Shown here: positions 11,401 to 45,964 of the stretch, piece after piece | How the letters are laid out: each line of letters begins with the position of its first letter | Numbering within the stretch: the first letter of the stretch is position 1 | Origin: a virus | Lineage: Duplodnaviria > Caudoviricetes | Strand: one strand, 5' to 3' | Length of the DNA: 59,303 bases | IMG/VR virus record: IMGVR_UViG_3300008266_000155 | Coordinates: 1 to 59,303 of that record | Notes under the pieces: model-generated | Databases searched by the model: none | Seen by the model: the letters and a program-made list of their open reading frames with translations, nothing else | Told to the model about the DNA's origin: nothing | Translations under genes and position numbers: made by a program

Positions 11401-12613
11401 GTATTGGGTGGAGGAGGAAAGCCGCCTCGCCATCGCCGACATCAACGAGCGTGCACAGGAGCGCAATGACGATGAGTTCTCCCTCCCGCCATATGACGAG
11501 CCAGGAGAAGCAGAAGGCGGCAGCCTTCCTGCGGAAAGCCTCGATGAAGGATCCGGGTCTGGACAAGGACAGCCGGCCGCGCCTGCGCCAACTGGCGAGC
11601 GCGCTGGAGAAGATCGCGGCCAAGAAGCGGCGGTAGAGCCCGGCGCTGAGGGCAAGCCGCAGACCGTCATTCCAGGCGCCGAGCGCATCGGCCAGAAGCA
11701 GCAGGCCGAGCGCGCCGCCGACAAGCCCCTGCGCCCGACCAAGCCGCAGCGCGAGGCCGGCGGCATGTTCGACGAGGCGCAGACTGCGCCGCAGCTATTC
11801 GACGACGTGCCGGCAGCCGTCGCCAAGATGGAGGCCGAGGTCGACGCGATCGAGCGCGGCATCGAGCCGCCCAAGAGCGCCGGTCTAGCCACGATCAAGG
11901 CCAAGCGCGAGGCGCTGGCAAATGCGACCGCGCCCGAACACGTCCAAGGCGTCGATGACCGTGAGCTAGGCCAGATCGTCGCCGAGTTCAATTCGGCGCA
12001 GCAGTCGATGGCGCAAGATGGCGAGGCCATTACGCACCTGTTCGACCCGCCAAAGAAAAACGAAATCGTGCGGCTGGATACCAAGGCCAAAGCCAACGGA
12101 ATGATGACGCGCGAGCAGGCCCGCGCCCGCATCGCCGAGTGGAAGGCGCACGCGCAGGCTCAAGGCGACAACGACGCCATCCGAAGCGAGAACAGTCAGA
12201 AAGTTGTTCTTTCGCTGTTCGACTACACCGGCGAATGGTCGAAGCCATGGGAGGAGGCCGGCTATCAAGTCTATCGCTTCGACATCCAGAACGATCCTGA
12301 GGTTGGCGACGTCAACAACTTCTCAACGGAGTTCTTCAGCGATTGGTTCGGCGACTTCGATGGCATGGACATCTACGCTATTCTCGGCGCGTGCCCCTGC
12401 ACCGACTTCGCGTCATCCGGCGCCAGGCACTTCGCAGCCAAGGATGAGGATGGCCGCACCGTCGCATCCGTGAAGCTCGTGCATCAGACGCTCGCCACGA
12501 TCGAGTATTTCAAACCGTCGATCTGGGCGATCGAGAACCCCGCGGCCTCCCGCCGTGGCGCTTGTCGTTCGACCCGAACCATCTTGGCGATAGCTACACC
12601 AAGAAGACGCTGA
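8435..12613 (+). CDS. Giant DarB-like polyvalent protein, segment 1 (FtsK-gamma, InPase, N-terminal part of C5 methyltransferase)
   Basis: 'STSLIQRKLGLGYNDAARLVEQLEAAGIVS' (FtsK-gamma); 'YGEIKNTKGADGDPID...FDEHKV' (InPase); 'LSLFDYTG...CPCTDF...IENP' (C5-MTase). Frame breaks at about 12541. Confidence 0.8.
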   Translation: MAGLFDDLIPAAPAESSSPQASSGLFDDLIPGSAPSSLLGTVTVPVAELDAATSRTGGKGLDRLIGASTGAADPARAYELRKAEQEANAAEIARLSQVDTDLRQAPVTEFIQEDPLTKMLREQREGEARRTGRPVPVSPNEIAADPIQQAEMVRQREIARAGSSFDAAQKEQRKLITTQPQTQDGVRNAAESAAAGIVGIPAGMADAGLIVAKEIANTPEAKARIDSMVRDVQQWTNSIARPDAARTDEFGSQLAQGVGSTGGFFLAGALGQALGLGATATTMIAGALPQASQLYREAEAKGATETQKWLAFAGGLGLGATEALPIANAMERWAAQVPGFRNVIRQGAVGGAEESAQEFGQSVGGNAIARSTFDPNRSLTEGTLEATAVGGLSGAGFGVAGSAATNLLRQEQAGEQGLRELPPPDTTGLPDIPGAPPAQPVPGRPDLPAGAMPADDFIGADPEAPPPGRESTRDQLEGLLNDPRSADEIRADIATQKDAAERRADRFTAGLEAAGIAAPVGADAAAPQTPLQQAEQIVREAGKGSTSLIQRKLGLGYNDAARLVEQLEAAGIVSAPDQAGKRTILPSIEAQTGEPDAPISIREPEDVNRGAENFVIQPTKQDIDAGKTVKRRVEWNGFQIDVETEQGEERVGVSPDGIAWSAVAPAPYGEIKNTKGADGDPIDIVLGPNPKGATFVVDQIDPKTGKFDEHKVYAGFDSEQQAQQTYEASFSDGSGKTRIGAVNPVSVAQLRQWAANRKTDKPFSYQPPIRAGLTAQQFSDLNRFIMEPGQSLNPAKLAPKIDADPEAVRAVMQRLAAAGTIDMTPAGRFSRPNKLEMLNILQFVASRGGVNPRAARELQDLDRVFLPRFGRVVRLNGLSWDELQEQAAEAGYQFATDGSGGMDVNELIEQMRQTIAGQPVYARGDQLRVLEKQDEREQAQRGDDDGGEGYRQAVRAAAAELDIKLNPDAIDDVAKQMAGQNISAAEAIEYWVEEESRLAIADINERAQERNDDEFSLPPYDEPGEAEGGSLPAESLDEGSGSGQGQPAAPAPTGERAGEDRGQEAAVEPGAEGKPQTVIPGAERIGQKQQAERAADKPLRPTKPQREAGGMFDEAQTAPQLFDDVPAAVAKMEAEVDAIERGIEPPKSAGLATIKAKREALANATAPEHVQGVDDRELGQIVAEFNSAQQSMAQDGEAITHLFDPPKKNEIVRLDTKAKANGMMTREQARARIAEWKAHAQAQGDNDAIRSENSQKVVLSLFDYTGEWSKPWEEAGYQVYRFDIQNDPEVGDVNNFSTEFFSDWFGDFDGMDIYAILGACPCTDFASSGARHFAAKDEDGRTVASVKLVHQTLATIEYFKPSIWAIENPAASRRGACRSTRTILAIATPRRR
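11466..11636 (+). CDS. Putative overprinted small basic protein (56 aa, +1 frame inside the giant gene)
   Basis: AGGAG 5 nt upstream of ATG. GC3-biased codons switch to this frame while the main frame becomes a low-complexity linker. Confidence 0.5.
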   Translation: MTMSSPSRHMTSQEKQKAAAFLRKASMKDPGLDKDSRPRLRQLASALEKIAAKKRR

Positions 12614-15600
12614 TCTGGGGGCGCTTCAACGCCGATCTGCCCGTCGCGCCCGTTGAGGCGACCGAGGGCTCTAAGATGTGGTCGCAGTATGGTGGCAAGA
12701 GCCAGCGCACCAAGAACGCCCGCAGCGCGACGCCGGAAGGCTTCAGCTACGGCTTCTTTATGGCGAACAATGCCCACGATCATCAGGCGATGGCGCTCGC
12801 CAATAAGTTCGACCGCCTCGACGGAAAGCTGATTGAGCAGGCTATCAAGGTCGGCGTGAAGCCTGACGCCATCACGAACGCCGTCGAAGACTTCTACTAC
12901 ATGGACCTCGATGACGAGGCCGCCAACAAGGCTATCCGCGATCTGATGCCCGGCAAGCCGACGCCGGCCCAGACCCGCCGCGAGGCCTTGGAGACCAGCG
13001 CCCCGCCCGTCGAGGATGATCGCGAGCGCCAGCGCCGCGAGAACGTCGCCAAACTCGATGCCATCGCCCAGGAGGGCGAAAATAAGGCAGCGCCGTCCAA
13101 GGGCGCCAGCAACACCGTCTTCACCGCCGACAAGGCCGCCGCCGCGCGCGCCCGCCTGAAGGCCAAGCTGTCTGGCTCGCAGCTCAACAGCGGCATCGAC
13201 CCCGAGACGGTTCAGGACGGCATCACCCTGGCCGGCTTCCACATCGAGGCCGGCGCCCGGAAGTGGGCCGACTACACCAAGGCGATGATCGCGGATCTCG
13301 GCGAGGTGGTGCGCCCGTATCTGCGCGGCTGGTACGAGGCCATCCGCTATTATCCCGGCTTCGATGCGCAGGGCATGAGCACGGCCGCCGAGATCGACGC
13401 GGCCGGATCAAATACCGCCACGGCCGAAACCCCAACGATTACAGCACGCGCGCCCGCCGAAGCGCCGGCGGAATCAAAACCCGATCAAAAAGCCGAAAAG
13501 GCCGAAAACCCGGTCGCGCCAGTTTCCGGCGTGGCGACCAGCGGCAAGCCCGAAGACAAGTTCCGCAGCATCCAGATCATCCGGAGCGGCGAGCTGCCGA
13601 GCTGGGCGTATGATGGGCTGAACCCCGAAGCGTTCTCCGATCTCGCTGACAAGATGAGCGTCGAGGAGCTGCGCGAGGCATCCACGACGCTGACCAAGAT
13701 GATGCTCGGCGGCCTGGGCAAGATCGCTGACCCCAGCCGCCCGATCAGCGACAGCATGCCGTTGATCGCGGTCATGCAGTCCGAGCGCGACGCCTACCGC
13801 GATGAGGCCGACCGCCGCGATCCGCCGAACCTCGCGGCCAGCAACAAGCCGGCGTTCGCCGATCCCTTGGACGAGATGCGGGCGCGTGGCGCCAAGGCGT
13901 TTGCCCGAGGCGAGCCGCGCATCCCGCCGTCGGAGCTGTTCAACAAGAAGGGCGCGAAAGAAGCAGAGGCGTGGATGGCCGGCTATGACCGCGCCATGGA
14001 CGGCGATGCGACCGGCGGCGTCTCGCAGCCTCAGTTGACGGCACCGCCCAAGGCGAAGACCGGCGAGTCGTCCATGGTCGAGGACATCGCCGACGCCTTC
14101 CGGCTGGCGTTCAGCGAGGGCAAGGGATTCCAGACGATCCTGCAGGCCCGGAAGCACGCCGAGAAGGTGACGCGGGCGCCGATCCAGCCCGGCACCGAGA
14201 TGGCCAAGATCGCCGACGAGGCGATCGAGCTGGGCGTGGTCATGCGCGCCCGCGACATCGTGGACGAGGGCCGCCGCGACGGCAGTAGCGAGAAGGCAAT
14301 CTACGACCAGCTCGTGAAGCTCTACGAGATGCAGCCGAACCTGTCGGTGCGCACGTCGACCAGCATGCGCGATCAGGCCTATTCGACCCCGGTACCGCTG
14401 GCCTACATCGCGTCGCGCCTGGCAGGCATCACGCCGCAGACGACCGTCTACGAGCCGACGGCCGGCAATGGCGCGCTGCTGATCGAGGCGGCGCCCGCCA
14501 AGAGCGTCACCAACGAGCTGAACCCGGATCGCCGCGCCGCGCTCGAGCTGCAGGGCTTCAAGCCCATGTCGCTCGATGCGAGCGCCGGCAGCACTGGCAA
14601 GCAGGCGCGCGAGGCCAACGGCGGCAAGACCTTCGACGTCATCATCGAGAACCCGCCATTCGGCGTGGTGAGGGACGACGACGGCAAGAGCCAGACCTAC
14701 AAGATCGACGACCGCTACAGCACGAACGAAATCGATCACGCCATCGTCATGCGCTCGCTCACGAGCATGAAGGGCGACGGCCGGGCCGTGCTCATCATCG
14801 GCGGCGTCAACAAGCTGATGAAGACGCGCGAGGCGCGCAGCGACGCCTACAACGGCAAGGCCAAGCGCGAGTTCTTCCTCACGCTCTATGGCCAATACAA
14901 CGTGATCGACCACTTCACGGTCGACGGCGATCTCTATGCCAAGCAGGGCGCCGGCTACCCGGTCGACGTCATCGTCATCAACGGGCGCGGCCGCTCCGCG
15001 CGCAAGGTGCCGGCCGCAGACGTGCCGCGAATTATCACGTCATGGGCCGATCTCAGGAACCAGCTCGATGTCGCAAAAACAACTGGACCAGCTATCGGAG
15101 AAGCTGATCGACCTGCTGTCGGATCTCAGCCAGGCCGAGCTGGCGGAATCGCTGGCGCAGATGGTGGACGAGTGGGAGGAAGCCGGCCTGATACCGCCGG
15201 AGTCGGCGGCGCTGCTGCGCGACCAGCCGAGCCTGCAGTCGGCGGATCTCCTGATAGAGGCGGCAAGCGCCCCGCTGACGGACCGGCTCAACTTCAACCG
15301 CAATCAGGAGCTGCCGCGCGCCCTGAAAGCGCAGACGCCGCAGGCGTTCAGCGACGCCCTCAGGTAGCCGAGCAGTCGCAGGCCTCGCTGTTCGAGGACG
15401 ATACCGCCGCCGAGACGCAGCCCGCGCTCGACGCGCCCGACAAGCCCAAGCCGCGCCAGGCGCCGGCCGCCGCCACGCCGGCAGCCGTCGACATGTCGAA
15501 GCCCCAGGTGCCGTACCGCCCGCGCAGCGATGCGAAGGGCATGGACACCCTTGTGCCGGTCAACATGCAGACCAGCGCGCAGGAGGCGCTGGACGATCTC

Positions 15601-18600
15601 GAGAAGCAGGTCGGCGACATCGACGAGTATGTGACCCGCGAGCTGGGCTACAGCTCCGCCGCGGACATGAAGCGCTATCTGGCCGCCGAGCAGGTCGATG
15701 GTGTCGCGCTCGGCATCTACAATTTCACAAAGAACGCCGGCCTCATCATCGGCGACCAGACCGGCATCGGCAAAGGCCGGCAGGTGGCGTCGATCCTGCG
15801 CTGGGCGATCAAGAACGGGAAGACCCCGATCTTCGTCACCGAGAAGCCCAACCTCTACGCCGACATGTACCGCGACCTGACGGACATCGGCATCGAGGCC
15901 ATGCTCGGCCGCCCGATCAAGATGTTCATGACCAACTCCGGCGAGTCGGTCCCGCTGGACGAGGACGGCAAGAACACGCTGAAAAGCCCGCCGGCCGGGC
16001 CCCACCAGATCAGCATGCGGCGCATGGCGCAGAGCGGCGATCTCGAGGGCCACGACATCATCTTCACGACCTATGCGCAGATGCAGACGGTCAAGGGCGA
16101 GGAGACGGAGCGGCAGAAGTTCCTGCGCGCCATGGCCGCCAAGAACGGCGTCATCGTGGTCGACGAGGCGCACAACGCCGGCGGCGGCGGCCCGGCCGCG
16201 CGCGAGAAGGTGAACGACAAGGGCGTCGTCATCATCAACCGCGCGACCTTCGTGCGCGAGATCCTTGGGCTGGCCGATGCGGCGCTCTACTCGTCGGCGA
16301 CCTATGCCAAGCGCCCCGACGTGATGGATCTCTATTTCAAGACCGACATGTCGCAGGCCGTCGATGACATCTCCACCCTGGGCGATCTCATCACCAAGGG
16401 CGGCATCCCGATGCAGCAGATCGTGGCCGCGATGCTGTCGCGCGCCGGCCAGTATGTGCGCCGCGAACGCAGCTTCGAGGGCATCGTCTACGATACCCCT
16501 GCTGTCGAGGTCGACACGGACAAGTACGAGGAGTTCAGCCGCAACATCGCGCTTATCCAGTCGTTCTCCGAGAACTTCGTGAAGGCGGCAGCCGGCAACA
16601 TCGACCAGCGGCTCAAAGAAGACGGCAAGCAGATCACCCCCGACGGCAGCACCGGCGGCGCGGGCGCCAGCTCGACCAACTTCACCGCCGTCATGCACAA
16701 CGTCATCAACCAGCTCCTGTTGTCGATGAAGGCGCAGGCCGCGGCCGATCGCGCCATTGCAGCGCTCAAGCGCGGCAAGAAGCCGGTCATCACCCTGGCG
16801 AACACGAACGAGGCGTTCATCGACGAGTACGCCGAGCAGGTCGGTGCCAATGTCGGCGACGCCATCGGCATCCGCTTCAACGATGTGCTGCAGCGCTATC
16901 TTGACCGCAGCCGCACCGTGACCATCAAGAAGCCGTTCGCGAAGAAGGGCGAGAGCGAGCGCATCTATCTGTCCGACGACGATCTCGGCCCGGCCGGTGT
17001 CGCCGCCTACAAGGAGGCGAAAGCCGCCATCGCGGCCGCCGACTATGACGGGCTCGCCGTCTCGCCGATCGACTGGATCCGCGCGCAGATCACCCGCGCC
17101 GGCTATACCGTGTCCGAGATCACCGGCCGCGGCCTGACGCTCGATTATCGGGCCGATGGGCAGTCCGTCCTGAAAATGCGCCCGGGCTCCGAGAAGTCGA
17201 TCACCGGCCGCCGCTCCGCGATCTCCGGGTTCAACTCCGGCAAGATCGATGTGCTCATCATCAACCAGTCCGGATCGACCGGCCTGTCGCTGCACGCTTC
17301 CGAGAAGGTGCTGAACAAGAACAAGCGCGTGATGATCCTGGCGCAGGCCGAAGGCAACATCGACACGCACATGCAGATGCTCGGCCGCGTCAACCGGACC
17401 GGGCAGGTGGTGCTGCCGGACTATCAGCAGCTCGTGGCCGGCATCCCCGCCGAGAAGCGGCCGGCGTCGATCCTCGCGAAGAAGATGGCGAGCCTGAACG
17501 CGAACACGACAGGCGCGCGCGATTCGGCCGTGACCGCCAAGGACACGCCCGATTTCATGAACGCCTATGGCGACCGCGTGGCCGCGTCGATCATGATCGA
17601 GAACCCCGACATCAACCGGCGGCTGGGCGAGCCTATCAGCTTGGACGAGGAGGCCGACACCGACGGCGCCATGCGCAAGGTCACCGGCCGCATTCCGCTG
17701 CTGCCGCTGAAAGAGCAGGAGGAGCTGTACGACCTGCTGCAGTCGGAATACGAGGCGCTGATCCGCCAGCTCGAAGCCAGCGGCCAGAACGCGCTCGAGG
17801 CCAAGACGCTTGAGCTGGACGCCCGCACCGTCGAGGCGGCCACCGTCAAGCCAGGCAAGGGCACCGCTTCGCCGTTCGCCGATGCCGTCTATTTCGAGAA
17901 GGTCGACGCGAAGCGGCTCGGCAAGCCGATGACGCCCGCGCAGATCTTCGACACCATCCTGACCAAGTTCGAGATGGATGACCGCACCGAGATCGACAAC
18001 AAGCCGTCCGATGAGGCGCGGCTCGCGCTCCTCGCGGCGCTCGGCCGCGGCATCATGAAGGACAAGGCCGGGCAGGCGCGCAGCGCGTTCGCGACCTTCA
18101 AGAGGCAGACTGTCGAGGCGGTCAAGAAGGACGACGCCAAGCGTCAGATGCAGGTCAAGCTCGACGACGTGCAGAAGCGCTGGGAGGCGATCATCGACAT
18201 CGTCTCGCCCGGTCAGGGCGTCGTGCTCAAGACCAACGAGGGCAATTTCTACGGCATCGTCACCGACGTCTCGTTCAGCGGCCGGGCCAAGAACCCGCTC
18301 GCCATGTCGGCTTGGCGCGTGGATGTCGCGCTCGCCGATCCCGCGCGCTCGATGAACGTCCCATTCTCGCAACTCTACACGGCGCGCACGGCGCCGGAAA
18401 AGGGCGGCGATTTCCAGATCGAGATCGCCCCGGTCAACAGCATCGGCTCGATGCCGCTGCTGCGCGCCTTCGAGGACATGCAGGCCGAGCGGCGCGAGGA
18501 CCGCGTCATGGTCACCGGCAACATTCTCGCCGGCTTCGACTTCGTCAACGGCGCCGGCCAGATCGTCAACTTCACCGACAACGAGGGCCGGCTGCGGCAA

Positions 18601-19422
18601 GGCATCTTCATGCGCCGCGGCTTCGACGCCGAGAAGTTCCTGGCGAAGAAGGCCGTGGTGCTCAAGACGGCGCGGCAGGTACTCACCTATCTCGAGCGCG
18701 TGAAGAAGACGATCGTTCAGTCGTCCGACAAGCTCGTCGCGATCAGGATGAGCGACCAGGGCGACGTCATCATCACCACCGATGCAACCCGGCAGGGCGG
18801 CGGCCGCTATTTCCTCAGCAAGAAGGTGACGGACGCGGCCGGCAAGGACTTCGTCAAGGTCAGCAGCCAGATGCGCATGGGCCTCTACCCGAACCGCGCG
18901 CTCGACACGATCGACCAGATCATCGCGCTGGGCGCCAGCTTCGAGGCGTCCGACAATGTCGACGTCGCGCGCGAGATCGCCGGCAAGGATGACCGCGCGT
19001 TCTCGATCAAGGTCACCACCAACAAGACCAAGACGCCAAGCAGCTCGAATGTCGAGGCCGACCCCATCGATCGCTTCACCGCCGACATCGACCGGCTGGA
19101 AGGATCGCTGCGGCGCCGGCTGGACCGGCTCGGCCTGGCCGACGTCGGCCTGCGGCTCGTGAAGGAGCTGCGGTTCAACTTCGAGGGCCAGTCGTTCCCG
19201 GCGTCGGGCATGTACCTGCGCGGGCTCATCACCGTCGCGCTGGACGCCGATAACCAGCAGATCCTCGATCACGAGGCGCTGCATGCCTTGAAGCGGCTGG
19301 GCGCGTTCACCCCTGTCCAATCGGTCGAAGGCCGACTGGATGGCGCGATGGAACATCCCCCAGGCATATGCGGCGTTCCCCGAGTGGGCGCAGGTCGAGG
19401 AGGGCGTCGCGCATGCCTATGA
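12562..19422 (+). CDS. Giant DarB-like polyvalent protein, segment 2 (end of C5-MTase, N6-adenine MTase, Strawberry-notch SF2 helicase, HExxH domain)
   Basis: 'YTKKTLIWG'; 'VYEPTAGNGAL...IIENPPF'; 'GDQTGIGKGRQ', 'DEAHN', 'TGLSLHA', 'QMLGRVNRTGQ'; 'HEALHAL' at about 19270. Confidence 0.85.
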   Translation: MSFDPNHLGDSYTKKTLIWGRFNADLPVAPVEATEGSKMWSQYGGKSQRTKNARSATPEGFSYGFFMANNAHDHQAMALANKFDRLDGKLIEQAIKVGVKPDAITNAVEDFYYMDLDDEAANKAIRDLMPGKPTPAQTRREALETSAPPVEDDRERQRRENVAKLDAIAQEGENKAAPSKGASNTVFTADKAAAARARLKAKLSGSQLNSGIDPETVQDGITLAGFHIEAGARKWADYTKAMIADLGEVVRPYLRGWYEAIRYYPGFDAQGMSTAAEIDAAGSNTATAETPTITARAPAEAPAESKPDQKAEKAENPVAPVSGVATSGKPEDKFRSIQIIRSGELPSWAYDGLNPEAFSDLADKMSVEELREASTTLTKMMLGGLGKIADPSRPISDSMPLIAVMQSERDAYRDEADRRDPPNLAASNKPAFADPLDEMRARGAKAFARGEPRIPPSELFNKKGAKEAEAWMAGYDRAMDGDATGGVSQPQLTAPPKAKTGESSMVEDIADAFRLAFSEGKGFQTILQARKHAEKVTRAPIQPGTEMAKIADEAIELGVVMRARDIVDEGRRDGSSEKAIYDQLVKLYEMQPNLSVRTSTSMRDQAYSTPVPLAYIASRLAGITPQTTVYEPTAGNGALLIEAAPAKSVTNELNPDRRAALELQGFKPMSLDASAGSTGKQAREANGGKTFDVIIENPPFGVVRDDDGKSQTYKIDDRYSTNEIDHAIVMRSLTSMKGDGRAVLIIGGVNKLMKTREARSDAYNGKAKREFFLTLYGQYNVIDHFTVDGDLYAKQGAGYPVDVIVINGRGRSARKVPAADVPRIITSWADLRNQLDVAKTTGPAIGEADRPAVGSQPGRAGGIAGADGGRVGGSRPDTAGVGGAAARPAEPAVGGSPDRGGKRPADGPAQLQPQSGAAARPESADAAGVQRRPQVAEQSQASLFEDDTAAETQPALDAPDKPKPRQAPAAATPAAVDMSKPQVPYRPRSDAKGMDTLVPVNMQTSAQEALDDLEKQVGDIDEYVTRELGYSSAADMKRYLAAEQVDGVALGIYNFTKNAGLIIGDQTGIGKGRQVASILRWAIKNGKTPIFVTEKPNLYADMYRDLTDIGIEAMLGRPIKMFMTNSGESVPLDEDGKNTLKSPPAGPHQISMRRMAQSGDLEGHDIIFTTYAQMQTVKGEETERQKFLRAMAAKNGVIVVDEAHNAGGGGPAAREKVNDKGVVIINRATFVREILGLADAALYSSATYAKRPDVMDLYFKTDMSQAVDDISTLGDLITKGGIPMQQIVAAMLSRAGQYVRRERSFEGIVYDTPAVEVDTDKYEEFSRNIALIQSFSENFVKAAAGNIDQRLKEDGKQITPDGSTGGAGASSTNFTAVMHNVINQLLLSMKAQAAADRAIAALKRGKKPVITLANTNEAFIDEYAEQVGANVGDAIGIRFNDVLQRYLDRSRTVTIKKPFAKKGESERIYLSDDDLGPAGVAAYKEAKAAIAAADYDGLAVSPIDWIRAQITRAGYTVSEITGRGLTLDYRADGQSVLKMRPGSEKSITGRRSAISGFNSGKIDVLIINQSGSTGLSLHASEKVLNKNKRVMILAQAEGNIDTHMQMLGRVNRTGQVVLPDYQQLVAGIPAEKRPASILAKKMASLNANTTGARDSAVTAKDTPDFMNAYGDRVAASIMIENPDINRRLGEPISLDEEADTDGAMRKVTGRIPLLPLKEQEELYDLLQSEYEALIRQLEASGQNALEAKTLELDARTVEAATVKPGKGTASPFADAVYFEKVDAKRLGKPMTPAQIFDTILTKFEMDDRTEIDNKPSDEARLALLAALGRGIMKDKAGQARSAFATFKRQTVEAVKKDDAKRQMQVKLDDVQKRWEAIIDIVSPGQGVVLKTNEGNFYGIVTDVSFSGRAKNPLAMSAWRVDVALADPARSMNVPFSQLYTARTAPEKGGDFQIEIAPVNSIGSMPLLRAFEDMQAERREDRVMVTGNILAGFDFVNGAGQIVNFTDNEGRLRQGIFMRRGFDAEKFLAKKAVVLKTARQVLTYLERVKKTIVQSSDKLVAIRMSDQGDVIITTDATRQGGGRYFLSKKVTDAAGKDFVKVSSQMRMGLYPNRALDTIDQIIALGASFEASDNVDVAREIAGKDDRAFSIKVTTNKTKTPSSSNVEADPIDRFTADIDRLEGSLRRRLDRLGLADVGLRLVKELRFNFEGQSFPASGMYLRGLITVALDADNQQILDHEALHALKRLGAFTPVQSVEGRLDGAMEHPPGICGVPRVGAGRGGRRACL
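15068..15367 (+). CDS. Putative overprinted acidic helical protein (99 aa, +1 frame inside the giant gene)
   Basis: AGGA upstream of ATG; MSQKQLDQLSEKLIDLLSDL...; codons such as CTG/GAG/GCC appear in this frame only. Confidence 0.55.
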   Translation: MSQKQLDQLSEKLIDLLSDLSQAELAESLAQMVDEWEEAGLIPPESAALLRDQPSLQSADLLIEAASAPLTDRLNFNRNQELPRALKAQTPQAFSDALR

Positions 19423-27787: not shown

Positions 27788-27856
27788 CGGTCCCTGTCCT
27801 GTCGCGAGGATGGTGACGGCGGGCACCAGCGCCCGCCGTCGTGTCTCAATCGGAGA

Positions 27857-29149
27857 CTAGCTATTGCCGCCGAACACGTCAATTTCGCCGTCGTCGACCG
27901 GCGCTGCAGCCTTCGCAGCAGCGCGCTCGGCCGCCTTGGCGCGCTTCCGCACGACCTCGGTGTAGCCGTAGGCGGTGTCGAGCACGGCGCGCGGCATGGC
28001 CTGAATGCGATCGGCCCACTCGTCGGTCACCGCGTCGAGCTGCGCCAGGGTGGTGACGTCTTGCAGCGCCTTGGCGAACGCCGCGAGGATGTTGCGCTGG
28101 CCGTCGGTGAACCCGTCCTCGCCGACCGGCTCGGCCGCCTCGTCGACCTCGCCCGTCTCCGGATCGTGGGGAACTTCGTTTGCCGGTTCGGTCGAACGAG
28201 TTTCCCTTGACGGCTCCTCTGCCGCCTTCACCGGCTCCTTCGGCGCGTCGGCTTTCGGCTCGGCTTTGGCCGCGCGCGGCGTCCGCTTCCTGCCTTCCGC
28301 TGCTTCGGCCGCCTTGTCTGCGGTGATCTCGGCCGCGTCTTCCAGCGACGGATAGACCTCGTCGGGCGACAGAAACCCCTCCTTGATGCCGCGCATTTCG
28401 GAGTAGACCCGGGCGAGGTTCTGCACGGTCCAATCTTTCTCGGCGCGGCCGACGACCGCTTCGACGCGCTTCATGTCGATCGCGGCCTCGGCCAGCACCT
28501 GATTGATGAAGCCCCAGGCGCGCTCGCGGTTGTCGGGATCGTTGAACTTGCGCACCAGCGACTTCTTGGCCTCCTCGATCGCGAAGGTGGCCAGCGAGCC
28601 GAGCGCGTTCAGCACGACGTTGCGGATCGCCTTCGAGACGGCAATCTGGAACACCATGTCGGCGGCGCGCTCGCTGTCATACTTGCCGCCGATGTTCTGC
28701 TTGATGCGCTGCTGGAACAGGCGCGAGAGCGACGTTCCGCGTTCGAGATCCACGAACCACGCCTTGATGATGATGTGGGTCGGCGTCTGCTGCACATCGC
28801 AGTCCACGCTGCAGTTGCCGTAGAGCTGGACCAGATCGTTCGCCAGCTTGATCGTGCCGCCTTCGACTAGCGTCTTGCGGCCGTTCGCCTTGTCGTTGAC
28901 CTCCCAGCTATAGGTGTACCCTTCGCCGAACTCAGCGCAGTAGCGTTTCAGCTCGGCGAGGATGCTGCCCATCTGGCGCGGCACCGCGACCTTGCGGGCA
29001 GTGACCTCGCGGGCGCCGGCGTTGATGAGGGTGGCACCGCCGAATGGCGTGTCCTGCACGGCCGGCACCTGATTGGCGCCGGTATCCCATGCGTTCGGGC
29101 GGGAGAACTCCGGCTCGGCGAGCGCGGGCATGTTCATACGGTCTTCCAT
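27857..29149 (-). CDS. Putative single-strand annealing/recombination protein
   Basis: 'VEGGTIKLANDLVQLYGN...DLERG...SKAIRNVVLNAL' core, acidic tail with 'HDPETGEV'; recombination-operon context. Confidence 0.5.
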   Translation of the reverse strand: MEDRMNMPALAEPEFSRPNAWDTGANQVPAVQDTPFGGATLINAGAREVTARKVAVPRQMGSILAELKRYCAEFGEGYTYSWEVNDKANGRKTLVEGGTIKLANDLVQLYGNCSVDCDVQQTPTHIIIKAWFVDLERGTSLSRLFQQRIKQNIGGKYDSERAADMVFQIAVSKAIRNVVLNALGSLATFAIEEAKKSLVRKFNDPDNRERAWGFINQVLAEAAIDMKRVEAVVGRAEKDWTVQNLARVYSEMRGIKEGFLSPDEVYPSLEDAAEITADKAAEAAEGRKRTPRAAKAEPKADAPKEPVKAAEEPSRETRSTEPANEVPHDPETGEVDEAAEPVGEDGFTDGQRNILAAFAKALQDVTTLAQLDAVTDEWADRIQAMPRAVLDTAYGYTEVVRKRAKAAERAAAKAAAPVDDGEIDVFGGNS

Positions 29150-29190
29150 GATCCTGATCCTTCTGTGGTGGTGGTCAGATTGCCGTCTCT

Positions 29191-29631
29191 TTATGTGACA
29201 ACTTGCCAGTCGTCCGCAAGCATGTCGGTCTGCGAGGCGAGCCAGCCGATGACGATGCTGCCGTCGGCCGCGCGCATGTCGATGTGCGGCAGGATGGCAA
29301 TCGTGTCGGGGGCGGGATCCTCAGTCGCGCGCGCCAGCGCCGCACCGGAGCGCGCCTGCATAGAGCTGATCGTGCTGCCGGGCGTCAGCGCCAGCCACAT
29401 GCCCTTGCCGTTCCAACCGGCGCGGGCGACGCGCTCGCCTGCCTTGAGCGCCGCGATGGCGTGGCCGAACGACATGGCCGTGATCGGCTGATAGTCGCGC
29501 AGGAACACCGCGTCGGGGCACCACGACGAATAGCCGTCCTGATAGGTCAGGCGCCAGCCGGGCCCCTGCTGGGCATGATATTCCGGCCAAGCCGTGACGA
29601 GCTTCGTGCTGTAGAATTTTGCGGACGCCAT
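29191..29631 (-). CDS. DUF2829 / Tad2-like anti-Thoeris/anti-CBASS sponge protein with N-terminal extension
   Basis: 'MSFGHAIAALKAGERVARAGWNGKGMWL...PHIDM...WLASQTDMLADDW'. Confidence 0.85.
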   Translation of the reverse strand: MASAKFYSTKLVTAWPEYHAQQGPGWRLTYQDGYSSWCPDAVFLRDYQPITAMSFGHAIAALKAGERVARAGWNGKGMWLALTPGSTISSMQARSGAALARATEDPAPDTIAILPHIDMRAADGSIVIGWLASQTDMLADDWQVVT

Positions 29632-31132: not shown

Positions 31133-31151
31133 CGGGTGGCCGCGTCCTATG

Positions 31152-31268
31152 TGTCACCGAAAGAGACAAGGCACGAGCCGGGCCGGCAAGTCAAGGCTGT
31201 GGACGGCTCATTGACAGCGCCCCCGGGCGGTGGTTACGGATTGAGACATTCTGCCACCATAGGAGACG
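31152..31268. promoter_or_regulatory. Divergent promoter region with three 17-bp operator-like palindromes
   Basis: TGTCAC-N5-GAGACA at 31152, GGTTAC-N5-GAGACA at 31232, TGCCAC-N5-GAGACG at 31252. TTGACA at 31211 (+) and TTGACT at 31194-31189 (-). Confidence 0.65.
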
Positions 31269-38743: not shown

Positions 38744-39115
38744 TCAGGCGTCGGGGTAAACGGCCCGGTAGAGCGCCATGCACTCCGGGTTGTCGGTGTG
38801 ATCGGCGATCAGCTCGGATCCGTCCTCGGCGTTGCCGTAGACCAGCGAGAACCAGCCGACCTTGTTGCCGGTCGCGTCGCGGATGATGAGCTGGTCCTCG
38901 TCGGTGCTGAACAGCAGCGCCATGATCTCGGTCTTCTTCGAGAGCTTCTTGCCGACCCACTCCTCGCCGTCGAAGACGGAGACGACGTAGCCGGCATCGA
39001 GCGCGGCGGTGATGAGCTTGCCGGCGACGCGGCCCTCGGCCGTGAAGCGGTTGGCCAGGACGGTTTCGCCCTCGGCGCGGGCGGCGGTGGCGGCGGTGGT
39101 GAACGGGGTCTGCAT
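38744..39115 (-). CDS. Hypothetical early protein
   Basis: AGGAG RBS; first gene after the leftward promoter. Confidence 0.65.
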   Translation of the reverse strand: MQTPFTTAATAARAEGETVLANRFTAEGRVAGKLITAALDAGYVVSVFDGEEWVGKKLSKKTEIMALLFSTDEDQLIIRDATGNKVGWFSLVYGNAEDGSELIADHTDNPECMALYRAVYPDA

Positions 39116-39138
39116 GGGGTGTCTCCTGGGGTTCGCGT

Positions 39139-39180
39139 TGTCTCCGGTGGAGACAATAAGCCCCAAAATGGACCCGTCAA
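39139..39180 (-). promoter_or_regulatory. Sigma70-type early promoter overlapped by a perfect operator palindrome
   Basis: TTGACG-N16-TATTGT on the minus strand with an upstream A-tract; TGTCTC-N5-GAGACA at 39139-39155. Confidence 0.7.
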
Positions 39181-39286
39181 CTGTTTTTTATTTCGCAGCA
39201 ATATCAACGACTTGCGGCCCGCCTTCGCGCGAGGCTCGTCACTTTTGGTGACTTGACGCGATGTCTCCGAGCGTGTCGATTGCAGT

Positions 39287-39362
39287 CGTGGAGTGGCGCA
39301 GCGGTCAGCGCATCGGCCTCATAAGCCGAGGGTCGCGGGTTCAAATCCCGCCTCCGCAACCA
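39287..39362 (+). tRNA. tRNA-Met (CAT), initiator-like
   Basis: Cloverleaf: acceptor CGTGGAG/CTCCGCA with C1:A72 mismatch, anticodon arm TCGGC-CTCATAA-GCCGA, T arm GCGGG-TTCAAAT-CCCGC, encoded CCA. Confidence 0.92.
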
Positions 39363-39363
39363 A

Positions 39364-40135
39364 TTCGCCCGCAAGGGCGTCCGGTAAGGTGGGCGGGGTT
39401 TCGGGTTCCTGCAGCGCCTTTTGTCTCGCGGAGAGAACCCGAGGGTGGCGACCGACGCCTGACGCCGGCCAAAGCGCCGGTCAGAGGCCGGCGCGTCCCG
39501 AAAGCCGCGACCGGCCCGAGAATTGGAGATCGCGATGCCGCCGCTGGGCGGGGTGTCGTGGGGCTCGACGACGAAGCGGCGAGGTGAATGGCGCTGCAGA
39601 AATCGTGACGGGGCGGTGCGGGGCGAATGCCCGCTGCGTCCTGGCCCAACCTATCGCCCGCCTAAGCAAGCGGGAAGCGGTGCAGCGGGGTTCGAGTCCC
39701 CAAGCGGATCGGGCAGCAATCCGGCTCGCGCAGGTGCAAGACCGTGATGCCGGTGCAAGCCCGGCTGCTGTTTCGCCCGTAAGGGCGCACGACATCCTCG
39801 CCGGGGGATGACACGGCCCTGCCAGGTTGCGCGCGCAGCTTGATCGCAGGTGACGGAATCCGGGCCGATGGGCGAGCGGACTTAAAGCGCCCCGAAGCTC
39901 GAGGCCATTGCGCGCCTCGAGCCAAGTTTCGCCCGAACGGGCAACGAAGTCTGGCCCCGGCGGGAGCATCCCCGTCGTCGGATGCTCGAGGAGAAGCCCG
40001 TGGCGCCCGCCCGTGCTTCAACGGGCCGGATAGAACCTGCCGCGCACGCCCCCGCGCGGTGGATGGCGAGGAAGCAGGGCGTCGGAACCACCACATGGTA
40101 TCTGACACCCGGCGCTCTGCTTCCAAGCCGCCAAC
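39364..40135 (+). ncRNA. Candidate large structured non-coding RNA
   Basis: No RBS-supported gene; many nested helices, GNRA loops and T-loop motifs (see findings). Confidence 0.6.
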
Positions 40136-40163
40136 AGCCCCTCGCGACAGGAGCGACCGACCC

Positions 40164-40502
40164 GTGACCACCACACGCAACCGCGACAACCCCGACGGCG
40201 GCGACGCCGAGCGCGACGCAGCTGATCCGCTGACGCCTGATGAGCGCGCAATCGTCGAGGGTTTCCGCCGCACATGCGACGAGAACGATTGGTGCGGCTG
40301 CCGCGCCCACCTCGCTCTTGGCGGCGAGCCCACGAAAGCGCAGCGCGAAATCATCCGCAGCCTCGTCGCGCGCGGGCTGCTGCGCTTGGAGCGCGGCGGC
40401 CAGGACGAGGACGGCCAATTCATCGGCGGCACGTTCTACGGCGTCACGTTCGAGGGCAAATGGGCCCTGAAATGGACGCCCCAGCGCGAGCTGCCGCTGT
40501 GA
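40164..40502 (+). CDS. Hypothetical protein, possible winged helix
   Basis: AGGAG RBS and GTG start; 'IIRSLVARGLL...YGVTFEGK'. Confidence 0.55.
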   Translation: MTTTRNRDNPDGGDAERDAADPLTPDERAIVEGFRRTCDENDWCGCRAHLALGGEPTKAQREIIRSLVARGLLRLERGGQDEDGQFIGGTFYGVTFEGKWALKWTPQRELPL

Positions 40503-45461: not shown

Positions 45462-45805
45462 TCGACCACTGAAAGCGCATCCTCTCGAGGATGATGGACG
45501 AGCGGGCGCAGGCGGCGAAGGCCGCCATGTTCTATCTCGACACGATCAACGACATCGAGTGGGTTTACAGGGACGCGCCGGGCGTGAGCCGGAAGCGCAA
45601 CCGCTTCATGGTTCGGCTCGCCTGCTAGGCACAGGGCAGCGCCCGCCGGCTGCATGCGGAGATCGAGGAGCTGCGGCGTAACCCGCTGGGATCGACCGCC
45701 CCGATCTTGTCGACAATCGGCGGATCGGATACCACTTGATCGCCGGCTTCGGCCGGTTGCCCTCCTTGGGCGTTTCCTCCCTAAACTTTCGGACCTATTC
45801 GAGCA

Positions 45806-45835
45806 CCCGCCGGCCCCCGTGGCTGGCGGGCTTTT
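45806..45835 (+). terminator. Rho-independent terminator after the terminase operon
   Basis: CCCGCCGGCC/GGCTGGCGGG stem followed by CTTTT. Confidence 0.6.
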
Positions 45836-45964
45836 CGTTGTGCCGCCCGGTCTTCCGCGCGTGCAAGATCCTGATCGGCGCTCGAGCTGCGATCTTGCGA
45901 AAATGCCGGTTCCACGGTAAGCCCGATGCTGCAGCCTCCCATCAGCGCGCCGAGGGCCACACCC

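What the first reader, a model, noticed from the sequence alone, without database searches (positions are those of the whole stretch)
39364..40135. ~780-nt densely folded non-coding region directly behind the phage tRNA: candidate large ornate RNA
Seen: in an otherwise gene-packed genome, this stretch has no RBS-supported ORF but nested long-range helices. These include AGGTGGGCG (39387-95)/CGCCCGCCT (39655-63), which encloses CTGCAGCGCC (39409-18)/GGCGCTGCAG (39590-99). Others are CGCCGGCC (39463-70)/GGCCGGCG (39486-93), GCTCGAGGC (39897-905)/GCCTCGAGC (39914-22), GAGCATCC (39964-71)/GGATGCTC (39980-87) and a 16-bp helix with two G-U pairs (40070-85/40109-24). GNRA loops and T-loop-like hairpins are also present. 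G-U pairs fit the + strand. Known: GOLLD and ROOL RNAs are large phage-associated ncRNAs, often next to tRNA genes. Inference: this is either a divergent GOLLD-like RNA or an undescribed large RNA class co-transcribed with tRNA-Met. I could not match it to a known consensus by eye.
Basis: partly seen in the sequence, partly recalled or inferred. Interest (0 to 1): 0.85.

Follow-up and report, generated by a model that had tools for sequence, protein, structure and literature searches.

The report
New pseudoknot RNA behind phage tRNA
The stretch behind the phage tRNA is truly non-coding, but what is conserved in it is a roughly 80-120-base pseudoknotted RNA motif shared by at least 13 other phage records and matching no known RNA family, not one giant 780-base RNA.

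Summary
The window is a complete 59-kb phage record. Positions 39116-40163 are a divergent intergenic gap with no codon periodicity and no protein-family hit, so "non-coding" is confirmed.

"Densely folded" is only weakly supported. Folding is not an outlier against the phage's own genome. No Rfam family matches, including GOLLD and ROOL.

Close relatives in public reads lack 124-nt and 91-nt blocks of the region.

The real finding is at 39363-39482. It consists of a variable hairpin P1, an H-type pseudoknot (P2/P3) with an invariant 11-nt linker, and a hairpin P4. The motif recurs in 13 other distinct IMG/VR records and shows clear covariation: 30 double-sided compensatory cells against 9.2 expected, reached by 0 of 500 shuffles.

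The motif follows a tRNA-Met in 3 of 14 members. In some other members it follows a promoter-like site. It always runs co-directionally with phage genes, which include ERF, methylases, primase, Tad2-like and Acb2/Tad1-like proteins.

I read it as a new phage leader RNA motif, probably cis-acting. The remaining ~680 nt are lineage-specific hairpin modules.

The parts
39253..39281 (+). Promoter-like site (TTGACG, 18-nt spacer, CGATTG) just before the tRNA
   Evidence: Read by eye. The provirus relative L060 has the same layout (TTGACA, 18 nt, CGATTT) directly before its motif. The consensus scan did not list it. Inference only.
39287..39362 (+). tRNA-Met (CAT) with encoded CCA; the first acceptor pair is a C.A mismatch
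   Evidence: ARAGORN. Rfam tRNA at 66.9 bits, with the first pair flagged non-canonical.
39363..39482 (+). The conserved RNA motif as a whole: P1, P2/P3 pseudoknot, invariant linker, P4, P5
   Evidence: Model R1 scores 88.7 bits on 39358-39448. Family alignments A3 and A5. Downstream alignment A6.
39366..39379 (+). P1: 5-bp hairpin with a GCAA loop (39366-70 with 39375-79)
   Evidence: 4 of its 5 pairs show double-sided changes across 14 sequences.
39386..39421 (+). P2: 39386-91 and 39393-97 pair with 39408-12, 39415-18 and 39420-21
   Evidence: 100% of cells are paired. The two outer pairs covary: AU10 GC3 GU1, and AU10 UA3 GC1. U.G and G.U pairs are fixed in 14 of 14, which fits the + strand only.
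39401..39407 (+). P3 5' arm, lying inside the P2 loop (pseudoknot)
   Evidence: Pairs with 39436-42. Pair types: CG11 GU2 GC1; CG10 GC2; GC9 AU4; GC14; UA11. This helix was not part of the covariance model.
39428..39438 (+). Invariant 11-nt linker GCGGAGAGAAC
   Evidence: Identical in 14 of 14 sequences, although it was not part of the search pattern.
39436..39442 (+). P3 3' arm
39446..39481 (+). P4 hairpin (39446-58), TGAC, then P5 hairpin (39463-81)
   Evidence: In 8 sequences RNAalifold predicts P4 with 4 of 4 pairs changed on both sides in at least one sequence. P5 is mostly invariant. The window row is poorly aligned there.
39486..39515 (+). Hypervariable hairpin
   Evidence: In the relative contig of run X12 it carries 9 substitutions and 8 inserted bases, while its flanks are nearly unchanged.
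39649..39772 (+). 124-nt block absent in relatives; bounded by a TCGCCCG direct repeat
   Evidence: Skipped in the contigs of runs X8 and X12. Present with 0 differences in a 151-nt contig of run X10. Holds the weak twister-sister-like match.
39772..39788 (+). Second P1-like hairpin (GUAA loop)
   Evidence: 3 matches to the hairpin pattern in the whole window, all in this region, against 0.2 expected.
39860..39892 (+). Block shared with relative L148, where it directly follows the motif
   Evidence: Exact 20-mer shared, and 81% identity over 53 nt.
39928..39942 (+). Third P1-like hairpin
   Evidence: L148 carries two near-identical copies.
39944..40034 (+). 91-nt block absent in the X8 relative; folds as a self-contained domain
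   Evidence: MFE z = -2.27, with 5 of 200 shuffles folding as well.
40070..40124 (+). 16-bp hairpin just upstream of the next gene's ribosome-binding site
   Evidence: For 40035-40163, z = -3.73 and 1 of 200 shuffles folds as well. One terminal pair is broken in X12.
40164..40502 (+). First downstream gene (GTG start, AGGAG at 40150); no family hit

Best explanation
Positions 39363-40163 are the non-coding leader of the + strand operon. That operon starts at a promoter-like site, then tRNA-Met, and runs on into small genes and the terminase genes.

Only the first ~80-120 nt (39363-39482) are a conserved structured RNA. This is a previously undescribed motif made of:
- a variable 5' hairpin (P1);
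- an H-type pseudoknot (P2 with P3);
- an invariant 11-nt single-stranded linker;
- a variable hairpin (P4).

Shown: the motif, its covariation, its + strand polarity and its genomic contexts.

Inferred: it acts in cis on the transcript that carries it. Most plausibly it makes RNA polymerase read through the hairpin-rich spacer and into the genes (processive antitermination of the HK022 put type). Alternatively it sets processing or stability of the 5' end after the tRNA is cut off.

The remaining ~680 nt are lineage-specific hairpin modules, possibly decayed tandem copies of the unit. They come and go between close relatives and are not one large ornate fold.
For: Family:
- A scan of IMG/VR with a 19-base gapped pattern gave 23 stretches. 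14 of them carry the whole motif and 9 do not.
- L155 is identical to L151 over the 380 nt compared and was dropped. That leaves 13 distinct relatives plus the window.
- Model R1 scores these 14 at 76.7-102 bits. They are its training set. Nothing else among the 36 sources searched scored above 14.9 bits.

Structure (alignment A5, 23 pairs; "x of 500" = shuffles reaching the observed value):
- 89.4% of cells are paired, against 80.0 +/- 1.2 in shuffles (0 of 500).
- 10 pairs show double-sided change, against 6.2 (0 of 500).
- 30 cells show double-sided change, against 9.2 (0 of 500).
- The covariation score is 0.301, against 0.134 (0 of 500).
- Sliding the partners by 1-3 columns drops pairing to 40-53%.
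- P3 was not in the model and still covaries.
- An anchor-based count without any aligner agrees: the two outer P2 pairs give 28 of 28 cells paired, against 20.4 +/- 1.5 (0 of 2000 shuffles).
- Fixed U.G and G.U pairs fit only the + strand.
- P4 covaries in 8 sequences.

Context:
- Flanking genes are co-directional in all loci.
- Only 1 of 13 relatives (L151, at +545) has a hairpin-plus-T-run terminator between the motif and the next gene; the other hits lie inside a gene or inside the motif.
- The distance from the motif to the next gene ranges from 120 to 940 nt, and the downstream gene families differ.
- In L060 the motif follows a TTGACA-N18-CGATTT site. It lies downstream of a CI-like repressor gene and upstream of erf.
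- In L139 an S24 repressor gene lies upstream.

Variability of the remainder:
- The contigs of runs X8 and X12 lack 39649-39772, and X8 also lacks 39944-40034.
- X12 shows 45 differences and 13 gapped positions across 39773-40248.
- Within 39363-39648 and outside one hairpin, X12 has only 3 listed substitutions and one 1-nt deletion.
Against: - No transcript data: no RNA run holds the stretch, so transcription, ends and processing are all inferred.
- The cis-acting antitermination role rests on position and context alone. No terminators were demonstrated in the spacer; one search found one weak terminator-like site at 39749-39765.
- The search pattern forced 19 motif positions to be invariant, and P1 and P2 in A5 are fitted to the model.
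- Shared ancestry among the 14 sequences inflates cell counts. For example, the A-U variant in P3 occurs in four similar sequences.
- Thermodynamic stability of the motif alone is unremarkable: z = -0.70 for the window and +0.08 for L060.
- In X12 one substitution (39375) breaks the closing pair of P1.
- The three tRNA-bearing members all have long spacers with extra P1-like hairpins. This could mean a larger functional RNA in that subgroup.
Confidence: 0.45

Rival explanations
1. The motif is a self-contained functional RNA, not a passive leader. Candidates are a small self-cleaving ribozyme that separates the tRNA or 5' end from the mRNA, a ligand-sensing aptamer, or a decoy or sponge for a host protein. 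In this reading it is released from or acts within the early transcript and may be tied to counter-defence.
For: - The anatomy is typical of ribozymes and aptamers: variable stems, a pseudoknot, and an 11-nt linker unchanged in 14 of 14 sequences whose flanks are otherwise unrelated.
- Two members insert an extra, covarying hairpin at one point without disturbing the rest.
- Tad2-like and Acb2/Tad1-like genes lie directly upstream in L154 and L156. Methylase genes lie downstream in L149 and L157.
- A tRNA lies next to the motif in 3 of 14 members.
Against: - No Rfam ribozyme or riboswitch model matches the motif.
- The downstream genes share no common function that would suggest a ligand.
- No expression platform or terminator follows the motif.
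- No cleavage or binding data exist.
Confidence: 0.25
2. The whole ~780 nt is one large ornate RNA with a GOLLD/ROOL-like role. The conserved motif is its core, and the variable blocks are peripheral domains.
For: - The three tRNA-Met-bearing members all have long non-coding stretches after the motif, each with two extra P1-like hairpins: the window 777 nt, L146 402 nt, L148 at least 550 nt.
- The window and L148 share further collinear blocks.
- The 91-nt block missing in X8 is a self-closed domain.
- All sub-segments fold somewhat better on + than on -.
- GOLLD and ROOL are often near tRNAs and in prophages (passages read in PMC5737381).
Against: - No GOLLD or ROOL match at E<=10.
- Long-range complementarity is at chance level.
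- Folding is not an outlier against this genome.
- The MFE changes when 23 nt are added to the folded stretch.
- 11 of 14 family members have the motif without such an extension, and in two of them the next gene starts ~120 nt after it.
- Near-identical relatives delete 124 and 91 nt.
- Model R1 scores the putative repeat units at only 7.8 and 6.2 bits.
Confidence: 0.1
3. The conserved blocks act as DNA rather than RNA: promoter-and-operator arrays or another protein-binding region of the phage.
For: - TGACAG-stem-GAGAGA-stem units with a following AT-rich hexamer recur before P1 in L060, L154 and L156, and after P4 in most members. They look like -35/spacer/-10 promoters with an operator in the spacer (by eye).
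- The invariant linker shares GGAGAGA with these units.
- A separate palindrome, TTGTCTC-N5-GAGACAA, marks 9 sites in the window against 1.3 expected.
Against: - Compensatory changes in three helices, one of them a pseudoknot.
- G.U pairs fixed in 14 of 14 sequences would be A.C mismatches on the other strand.
- The variable positions fall in loops, not in half-sites.
Confidence: 0.1

Closest known systems
GOLLD and ROOL large RNAs
   Same: Phage or prophage-borne non-coding RNA next to a tRNA gene and possibly co-transcribed with it (passages read in PMC5737381). The gap here is of similar length.
   Different: Neither model matches at E<=10. The conserved unit here is about 80-120 nt with one pseudoknot. 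By contrast, ROOL averages 581 nt with six multistem junctions (PMC5737381). The rest of the gap is not conserved.
HK022 put sites (cis-acting antitermination RNA); recalled, not tested
   Same: A small structured RNA placed just behind an early promoter of a temperate phage, upstream of varied genes, with no dedicated downstream gene family. This is what the motif works like in my best reading.
   Different: I hold no put sequence or model, so there was no comparison. As I recall, put is two stem-loops without a pseudoknot. No antitermination is shown here.
Lambda/P22 nut boxB hairpins; recalled, not tested
   Same: Short G+C stems with GNRA-type loops, repeated in a phage leader (three copies here).
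   Different: No N-like protein was found: the first downstream gene has no family hit. The loop of the third copy is not GNRA. The P1 sequence varies freely across the family.
Twister-sister ribozyme
   Same: 39729-39800 matches the conserved GCAAG strand and the 17-nt hairpin of the model.
   Different: 22.4 bits against a gathering score of 34. P1, P2 and P5 contain non-canonical pairs or gaps, and the 3' loop strand is incomplete. Close relatives lack the 5' 44 nt of the match.
Stable small RNAs encoded within the phage T4 tRNA gene cluster; recalled
   Same: Non-tRNA structured RNAs co-transcribed with phage tRNAs and released by processing.
   Different: Those RNAs lie within a multi-tRNA cluster of a virulent phage.

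Membership tests
GOLLD / ROOL (Rfam) | Match to the family covariance model | tested here: not met
   cmscan of all 4227 Rfam 15 families found no hit at gathering score and none up to E=10 with permissive filters on 39100-40300 and 39355-39660.
GOLLD / ROOL (Rfam) | Large conserved multi-junction fold supported by covariation over hundreds of nucleotides | tested here: not met
   Conservation across the family ends near 39482. Long-range complementarity is at chance level. Blocks of 124 and 91 nt are absent in close relatives.
GOLLD / ROOL (Rfam) | Location near tRNA genes, often in prophages | tested here: met
   Directly behind tRNA-Met in the window, L146 and L148. G001 is classed as a provirus.
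Twister-sister ribozyme | Score at or above the Rfam gathering threshold, with intact P1/P2 and both strands of the catalytic internal loop | tested here: not met
   22.4 bits against 34. Non-canonical pairs are flagged in P1, P2 and P5, and the 3' strand has a gap.
tmRNA / second tRNA / decayed tRNA array | tRNA-like domain detectable by ARAGORN or the Rfam tRNA/tmRNA models | tested here: not met
   ARAGORN finds one tRNA and no tmRNA. The only tmRNA_permuted hit scores 14.9 bits and overlaps the real tRNA's T-arm.
   The window scores 88.7 bits, although it is a training sequence. All three helices and the linker are present at 39366-39442.
HK022 put-type antitermination RNA | Promotes terminator read-through in cis by acting on RNA polymerase | not testable with these tools
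   This needs transcription assays. Only position and context are compatible.

The most novel reading that the evidence does not exclude
The motif is a new class of catalytic or ligand/protein-binding RNA, for example a self-cleaving ribozyme that frees the tRNA and mRNA ends, or a sensor or decoy wired into phage counter-defence. It heads early and accessory operons of temperate phages. In the tRNA-fMet-bearing lineage it has expanded into a three-unit array that makes up the ~780-nt region.
Probability: 0.15. Interest if true: 0.85.

Novelty: new variant of a known kind. Interest (0 to 1): 0.6.

Why it matters
- Structured RNAs of phages are few, and most have no known role.
- This one has a compact pseudoknot, invariant unpaired nucleotides and covariation from only 14 sequences. 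That makes it a good candidate for biochemical study.
- It sits at the head of phage operons, beside an initiator-type tRNA or beside anti-defence, methylase and recombination genes. If it controls read-through, processing or sensing there, it would be a new regulatory device of temperate phages.
- It is absent from Rfam 15, from 50,697 deposited phage records and from 72,556 plasmids.
- The case also shows that long complementary segments in 70% G+C DNA are not evidence of a large RNA.

Tried and rejected
Searches for relatives:
- Neighbour-protein searches in IMG/VR. The upstream gene gave only 33-47% identical relatives, with no tRNA and no DNA similarity. The two downstream genes and the large terminase gave nothing.
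- Exact 20-25-mers from 39586-39610 found 0 in viral contigs. In genome and metagenome contigs they found only chance 20-mers, and that spent both caps.
- A 16-base P1 pattern gave 115 stretches, mostly terminators or coding sequence. Only L060 was a real relative.
- BLAST of the motif found 0 true matches in 401 genomes of the class of G002. The six listed hits were 19-30-nt chance matches. The gapped motif pattern also matched 0 of those 401 genomes.

Expression:
- No RNA holder was listed among the 24 sequencing runs.

Covariation in the rest of the region:
- Variants from X8 and X12 gave a mix: G.U-compatible changes, one double change in a badly aligned hairpin, and several broken pairs. 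This is uninformative.
- The read laying tables were cut: 29 substitution rows and 7 indel rows were not shown.

Ideas considered and dropped:
- A small ORF at 39535-39747 has a good ribosome-binding site. It was rejected because it lacks third-position GC bias, has no family hit, and is frame-shifted after codon 38 in X12 by my reading.
- The attP/integration idea: none of the 30 window ORFs submitted to Pfam or PHROGs matched an integrase. These are not all genes of the window.
- A two-hairpin nested fold of the motif from RNAalifold on two sequences was superseded by the pseudoknot once 14 sequences were in hand.

Other:
- The first count of structure pairs used mis-registered columns and is superseded.
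- Literature: no paper holds the motif words. The supplements of PMC5737381, which list its 224 motifs, could not be read.

Full report
**The locus.** The window is a whole IMG/VR virus record of 59,303 bases, estimated 99% complete. It carries a P22-like portal, a small terminase, a capsid gene and recombination nucleases. Genes on the - strand end with their start codons at 39115/39166. The next + strand gene starts at GTG 40164. So 39116-40163 is a divergent intergenic gap, and it holds tRNA-Met(CAT) at 39287-39362. The tRNA is preceded by a TTGACG-N18-CGATTG site that I read by eye; the consensus scan did not list it.

**Is it non-coding?** Yes.
- The contrast in G+C between codon positions is 0.05-0.25 across 39116-40240, against 0.35-0.70 in the neighbouring genes.
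- None of 9 ORFs crossing the region hits PHROGs or Pfam at E<=0.01.
- A small ORF at 39535 has a good ribosome-binding site but lacks third-position bias. By my reading it is frame-shifted in a close relative.

**Is it densely folded beyond chance?** Only weakly.
- Perfect complementary segments of >=8, >=9 and >=10 nt within 39363-40163 number 16, 2 and 1. Dinucleotide shuffles give 12.3, 3.6 and 1.06, and 56, 265 and 196 of 300 shuffles reach these counts. Same-size windows of this genome behave alike. So 9-10-bp long-range helices are expected in 70% G+C sequence.
- The 778-nt MFE has z = -2.41 on + and -1.22 on -, from 20 shuffles.
- Against 331 windows of 400 nt from the same genome (positions 1-43,891 only), the region's + strand residuals after regression on G+C are -0.7 to -1.4 sd.
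- Local perfect hairpins are about four-fold enriched, and 17 of 586 windows match the count.
- Sub-segment z-scores on + are -1.96 (39380-39665), -1.11 (39649-39772), -2.27 (39944-40034) and -3.73 (40035-40163). All are less negative on the - strand.

**Known families.** The only hits at Rfam gathering scores are the tRNA and an mmgR/suhB-like sRNA elsewhere in the window. With permissive filters and E<=10 there is no GOLLD, ROOL, RNase P or intron match. The sole tmRNA-type hit (tmRNA_permuted, 14.9 bits, E 1.6) overlaps the real tRNA's T-arm. The best non-tRNA hit inside the region is twister-sister at 22.4 bits, against a gathering score of 34.

**Close relatives.** Public runs hold the stretch or parts of it. 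I laid four of them at 80% likeness.
- Run X12 has a 1,482-nt contig and run X8 a 741-nt contig that are relatives at roughly 90-96% identity.
- Run X10 holds two identical 151-nt pieces.
- Both relative contigs lack 39649-39772, a block bounded by a TCGCCCG direct repeat. X8 also lacks 39944-40034.
- Listed differences in X12, by segment:

| Segment | Differences in X12 |
|---|---|
| 39000-39115 (116 coding nt) | 1 |
| 39116-39286 | 11 plus a deletion |
| tRNA | 1 |
| 39363-39485 | 3 plus a deletion |
| hairpin 39486-39515 | 9 substitutions and 8 inserted bases |
| 39516-39648 | 0 |
| 39773-40248 | 45 plus 13 gapped positions |

- After 40248 the X12 contig runs on unlike the window.
- The tables were cut (29 substitution rows and 7 indel rows not shown), so these are lower bounds.
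- Mapping the variants onto the MFE gave nothing decisive.

**Finding the family.**
- Three copies of a hairpin (TTCGCCCGNAMGGGC) occur in the window, all inside the region.
- Scanning IMG/VR with this hairpin returned 115 stretches. One of them, L060 from a 53.5-kb provirus, shares 83 nt at 84% identity with 39357-39438.
- A gapped pattern from two blocks conserved between the window and L060 returned 23 stretches. 14 carry the full element and 9 do not.
- L155 equals L151 over the compared part and was dropped. This leaves 14 distinct sequences, counting the window.
- A covariance model built from them (R1) scores each at 76.7-102 bits. Nothing else in 309 kb of session sequence scored above 14.9 bits. 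There is no second copy in the window.
- None of the 13 loci shows an Rfam family on the element.
- No match was found in deposited phage records or plasmids, nor in 401 sampled genomes of one bacterial class.

**Structure, in window coordinates.**
- P1: 39366-70 with 39375-79.
- P2: 39386-91 and 39393-97 with 39408-12, 39415-18 and 39420-21.
- P3: 39401-07, inside the P2 loop, with 39436-42. This makes an H-type pseudoknot.
- The linker at 39428-38 is identical in 14 of 14 sequences, although it was not part of the search pattern.

Counts on alignment A5:
- 89.4% of 322 cells are paired, against 80.0 +/- 1.2 in shuffles (0 of 500 reach it).
- 10 pairs and 30 cells show changes on both sides, against 6.2 and 9.2 (0 of 500 each).
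- The covariation score is 0.301, against 0.134 (0 of 500).
- The count of further pair types, 22 against 18.2, is reached by 22 of 500 shuffles.
- Sliding the partners by 1-3 columns gives 40-53% paired.

Further points on the structure:
- P3 was not in the model, so its pair types are not fitted: CG11/GU2/GC1, CG10/GC2, GC9/AU4, GC14 and UA11.
- An anchor-based count without any aligner gives 28 of 28 cells paired for the two outer P2 pairs, against 20.4 +/- 1.5 (0 of 2000 shuffles).
- U.G and G.U pairs fixed in all 14 sequences fit only the + strand.
- Two members insert an extra hairpin before the linker, and its stem differs by a compensated change.
- A further hairpin, P4, covaries in 8 sequences.
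- Caveats: 19 positions were fixed by the search pattern; P1 and P2 are fitted to the model; the sequences are related, so cells are not independent events.
- The motif alone is not unusually stable (z = -0.70 and +0.08).

Its arms 39387-95 and 39409-18 pair with each other in P2, not with 39655-63 and 39590-99. The sequence of the latter partner occurs downstream in 0 of 13 relatives. In L060 and L139 the next gene begins about 120 nt after the motif.

**Context.**
- Flanking genes run in the same direction as the motif in every locus.
- Downstream genes: ERF (L060), a GNAT and an N6/N4 methylase (L149), a C5 methylase (L157), a primase (L156), DUF6378 (L151) and a dGTP diphosphohydrolase domain (L158).
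- Upstream genes: SSB and a large terminase (L146) and a Toprim primase (L148). A Tad2-like protein (L154) and an Acb2/Tad1-like protein (L156) lie directly upstream. CI-like repressors lie upstream in L139 and L060.
- Between the motif and the next gene, only L151 has a hairpin-plus-T-run, at +545.
- tRNA-Met(CAT) precedes the motif in the window, L146 and L148.
- In L060, L154 and L156 a TGACAG-hairpin-AT-rich hexamer unit precedes the motif (by eye).
- mmgR-like sRNAs in the window, L060 and L139 hint at alphaproteobacterial hosts. Which hosts carry that family is recalled, not tested.

**The rest of the region.**
- Extra P1-like hairpins after the motif occur only in the three tRNA-bearing members. 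Their spacers are long: 777 nt, 402 nt and at least 550 nt.
- The window and L148 also share an exact 20-mer, at 39860-79 in the window. In L148 it directly follows the motif.
- Model R1 with filters off gives weak, unconvincing matches starting at the second and third hairpins (7.8 and 6.2 bits). These matches, together with the comings and goings of the 124-nt and 91-nt blocks, suggest decayed tandem units or hairpin modules rather than one fold.

**Mechanism.**
- Shown: a conserved, + strand, pseudoknotted RNA motif at the head of phage transcription units.
- Inferred: it acts in cis. It is independent of the identity of the downstream genes, no terminator follows it, and it sits just behind a promoter-like site or a tRNA. 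These features fit a processive antitermination or a processing/stability element best (confidence 0.45).
- Still open: a stand-alone catalytic, sensing or decoy RNA (0.25); a large RNA in the long-form subgroup (0.10); a DNA-level role (0.10).
- No RNA data were available.
- I read only passages of PMC5737381, not its supplements. A motif described only there and absent from Rfam would have escaped me.

Noticed in passing
window 45752-45846 (+); L060 5236-5308; L139 3678-3757: An mmgR/suhB-like sRNA (RF00519) lies just after the large terminase gene, at 41.7 bits against a gathering score of 41. Better-scoring copies (51.2 and 50.2 bits) lie in two of the motif-bearing relatives. Phage-borne copies of a host-type sRNA.
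   Followed up: partly
window 39138-39156, 27841-27859, 29183-29201, 31151-31169 and five more sites: The palindrome TTGTCTC-N5-GAGACAA occurs 9 times (up to 3 mismatches) against 1.3 expected. Four of the sites lie 15-35 nt upstream of - strand gene starts. It may be a phage operator or a translational operator hairpin. In the X12 relative only the central spacer of the 39138 copy differs.
   Followed up: partly
window 39287-39362; L146 and L148 upstream of the motif: The first acceptor pair of the tRNA-Met is a C.A mismatch and the CCA is encoded. From recalled knowledge this looks like an initiator tRNA. The same kind of tRNA precedes the motif in two relatives.
   Followed up: partly
window 39729-39800: Sub-threshold twister-sister match (22.4 bits, E 0.048 for the 1.2-kb search). 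It includes an exact 17-nt match to the conserved hairpin. Two GGTGCAAGNCCG T-loop-like hairpins occur only here in the window.
   Followed up: partly
window 39649-39772: A 124-nt block is present in the window and in a run X10 contig but absent in X8 and X12. It is bounded by a 7-nt direct repeat that falls in the 5' arm of a P1-like hairpin. This is either an insertion into the hairpin or a deletion between short repeats.
   Followed up: partly
L154 1953-2522 (+) and L156 5565-5984 (-): Tad2-like and Acb2/Tad1-hairpin-domain proteins (anti-Thoeris and anti-CBASS sponge families) are encoded immediately upstream of the RNA motif in two relatives.
   Followed up: no
L060 3546-3761 (-): A provirus gene with a ribosome modulation factor (RMF) domain (30.2 bits) lies between the CI-like repressor gene and the motif.
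   Followed up: no
window 8435-12613 and 12562-19422 (+): Two very large ORFs (1392 and 2286 aa) with coding-type codon bias lie in the structural region. They were not annotated here.
   Followed up: no
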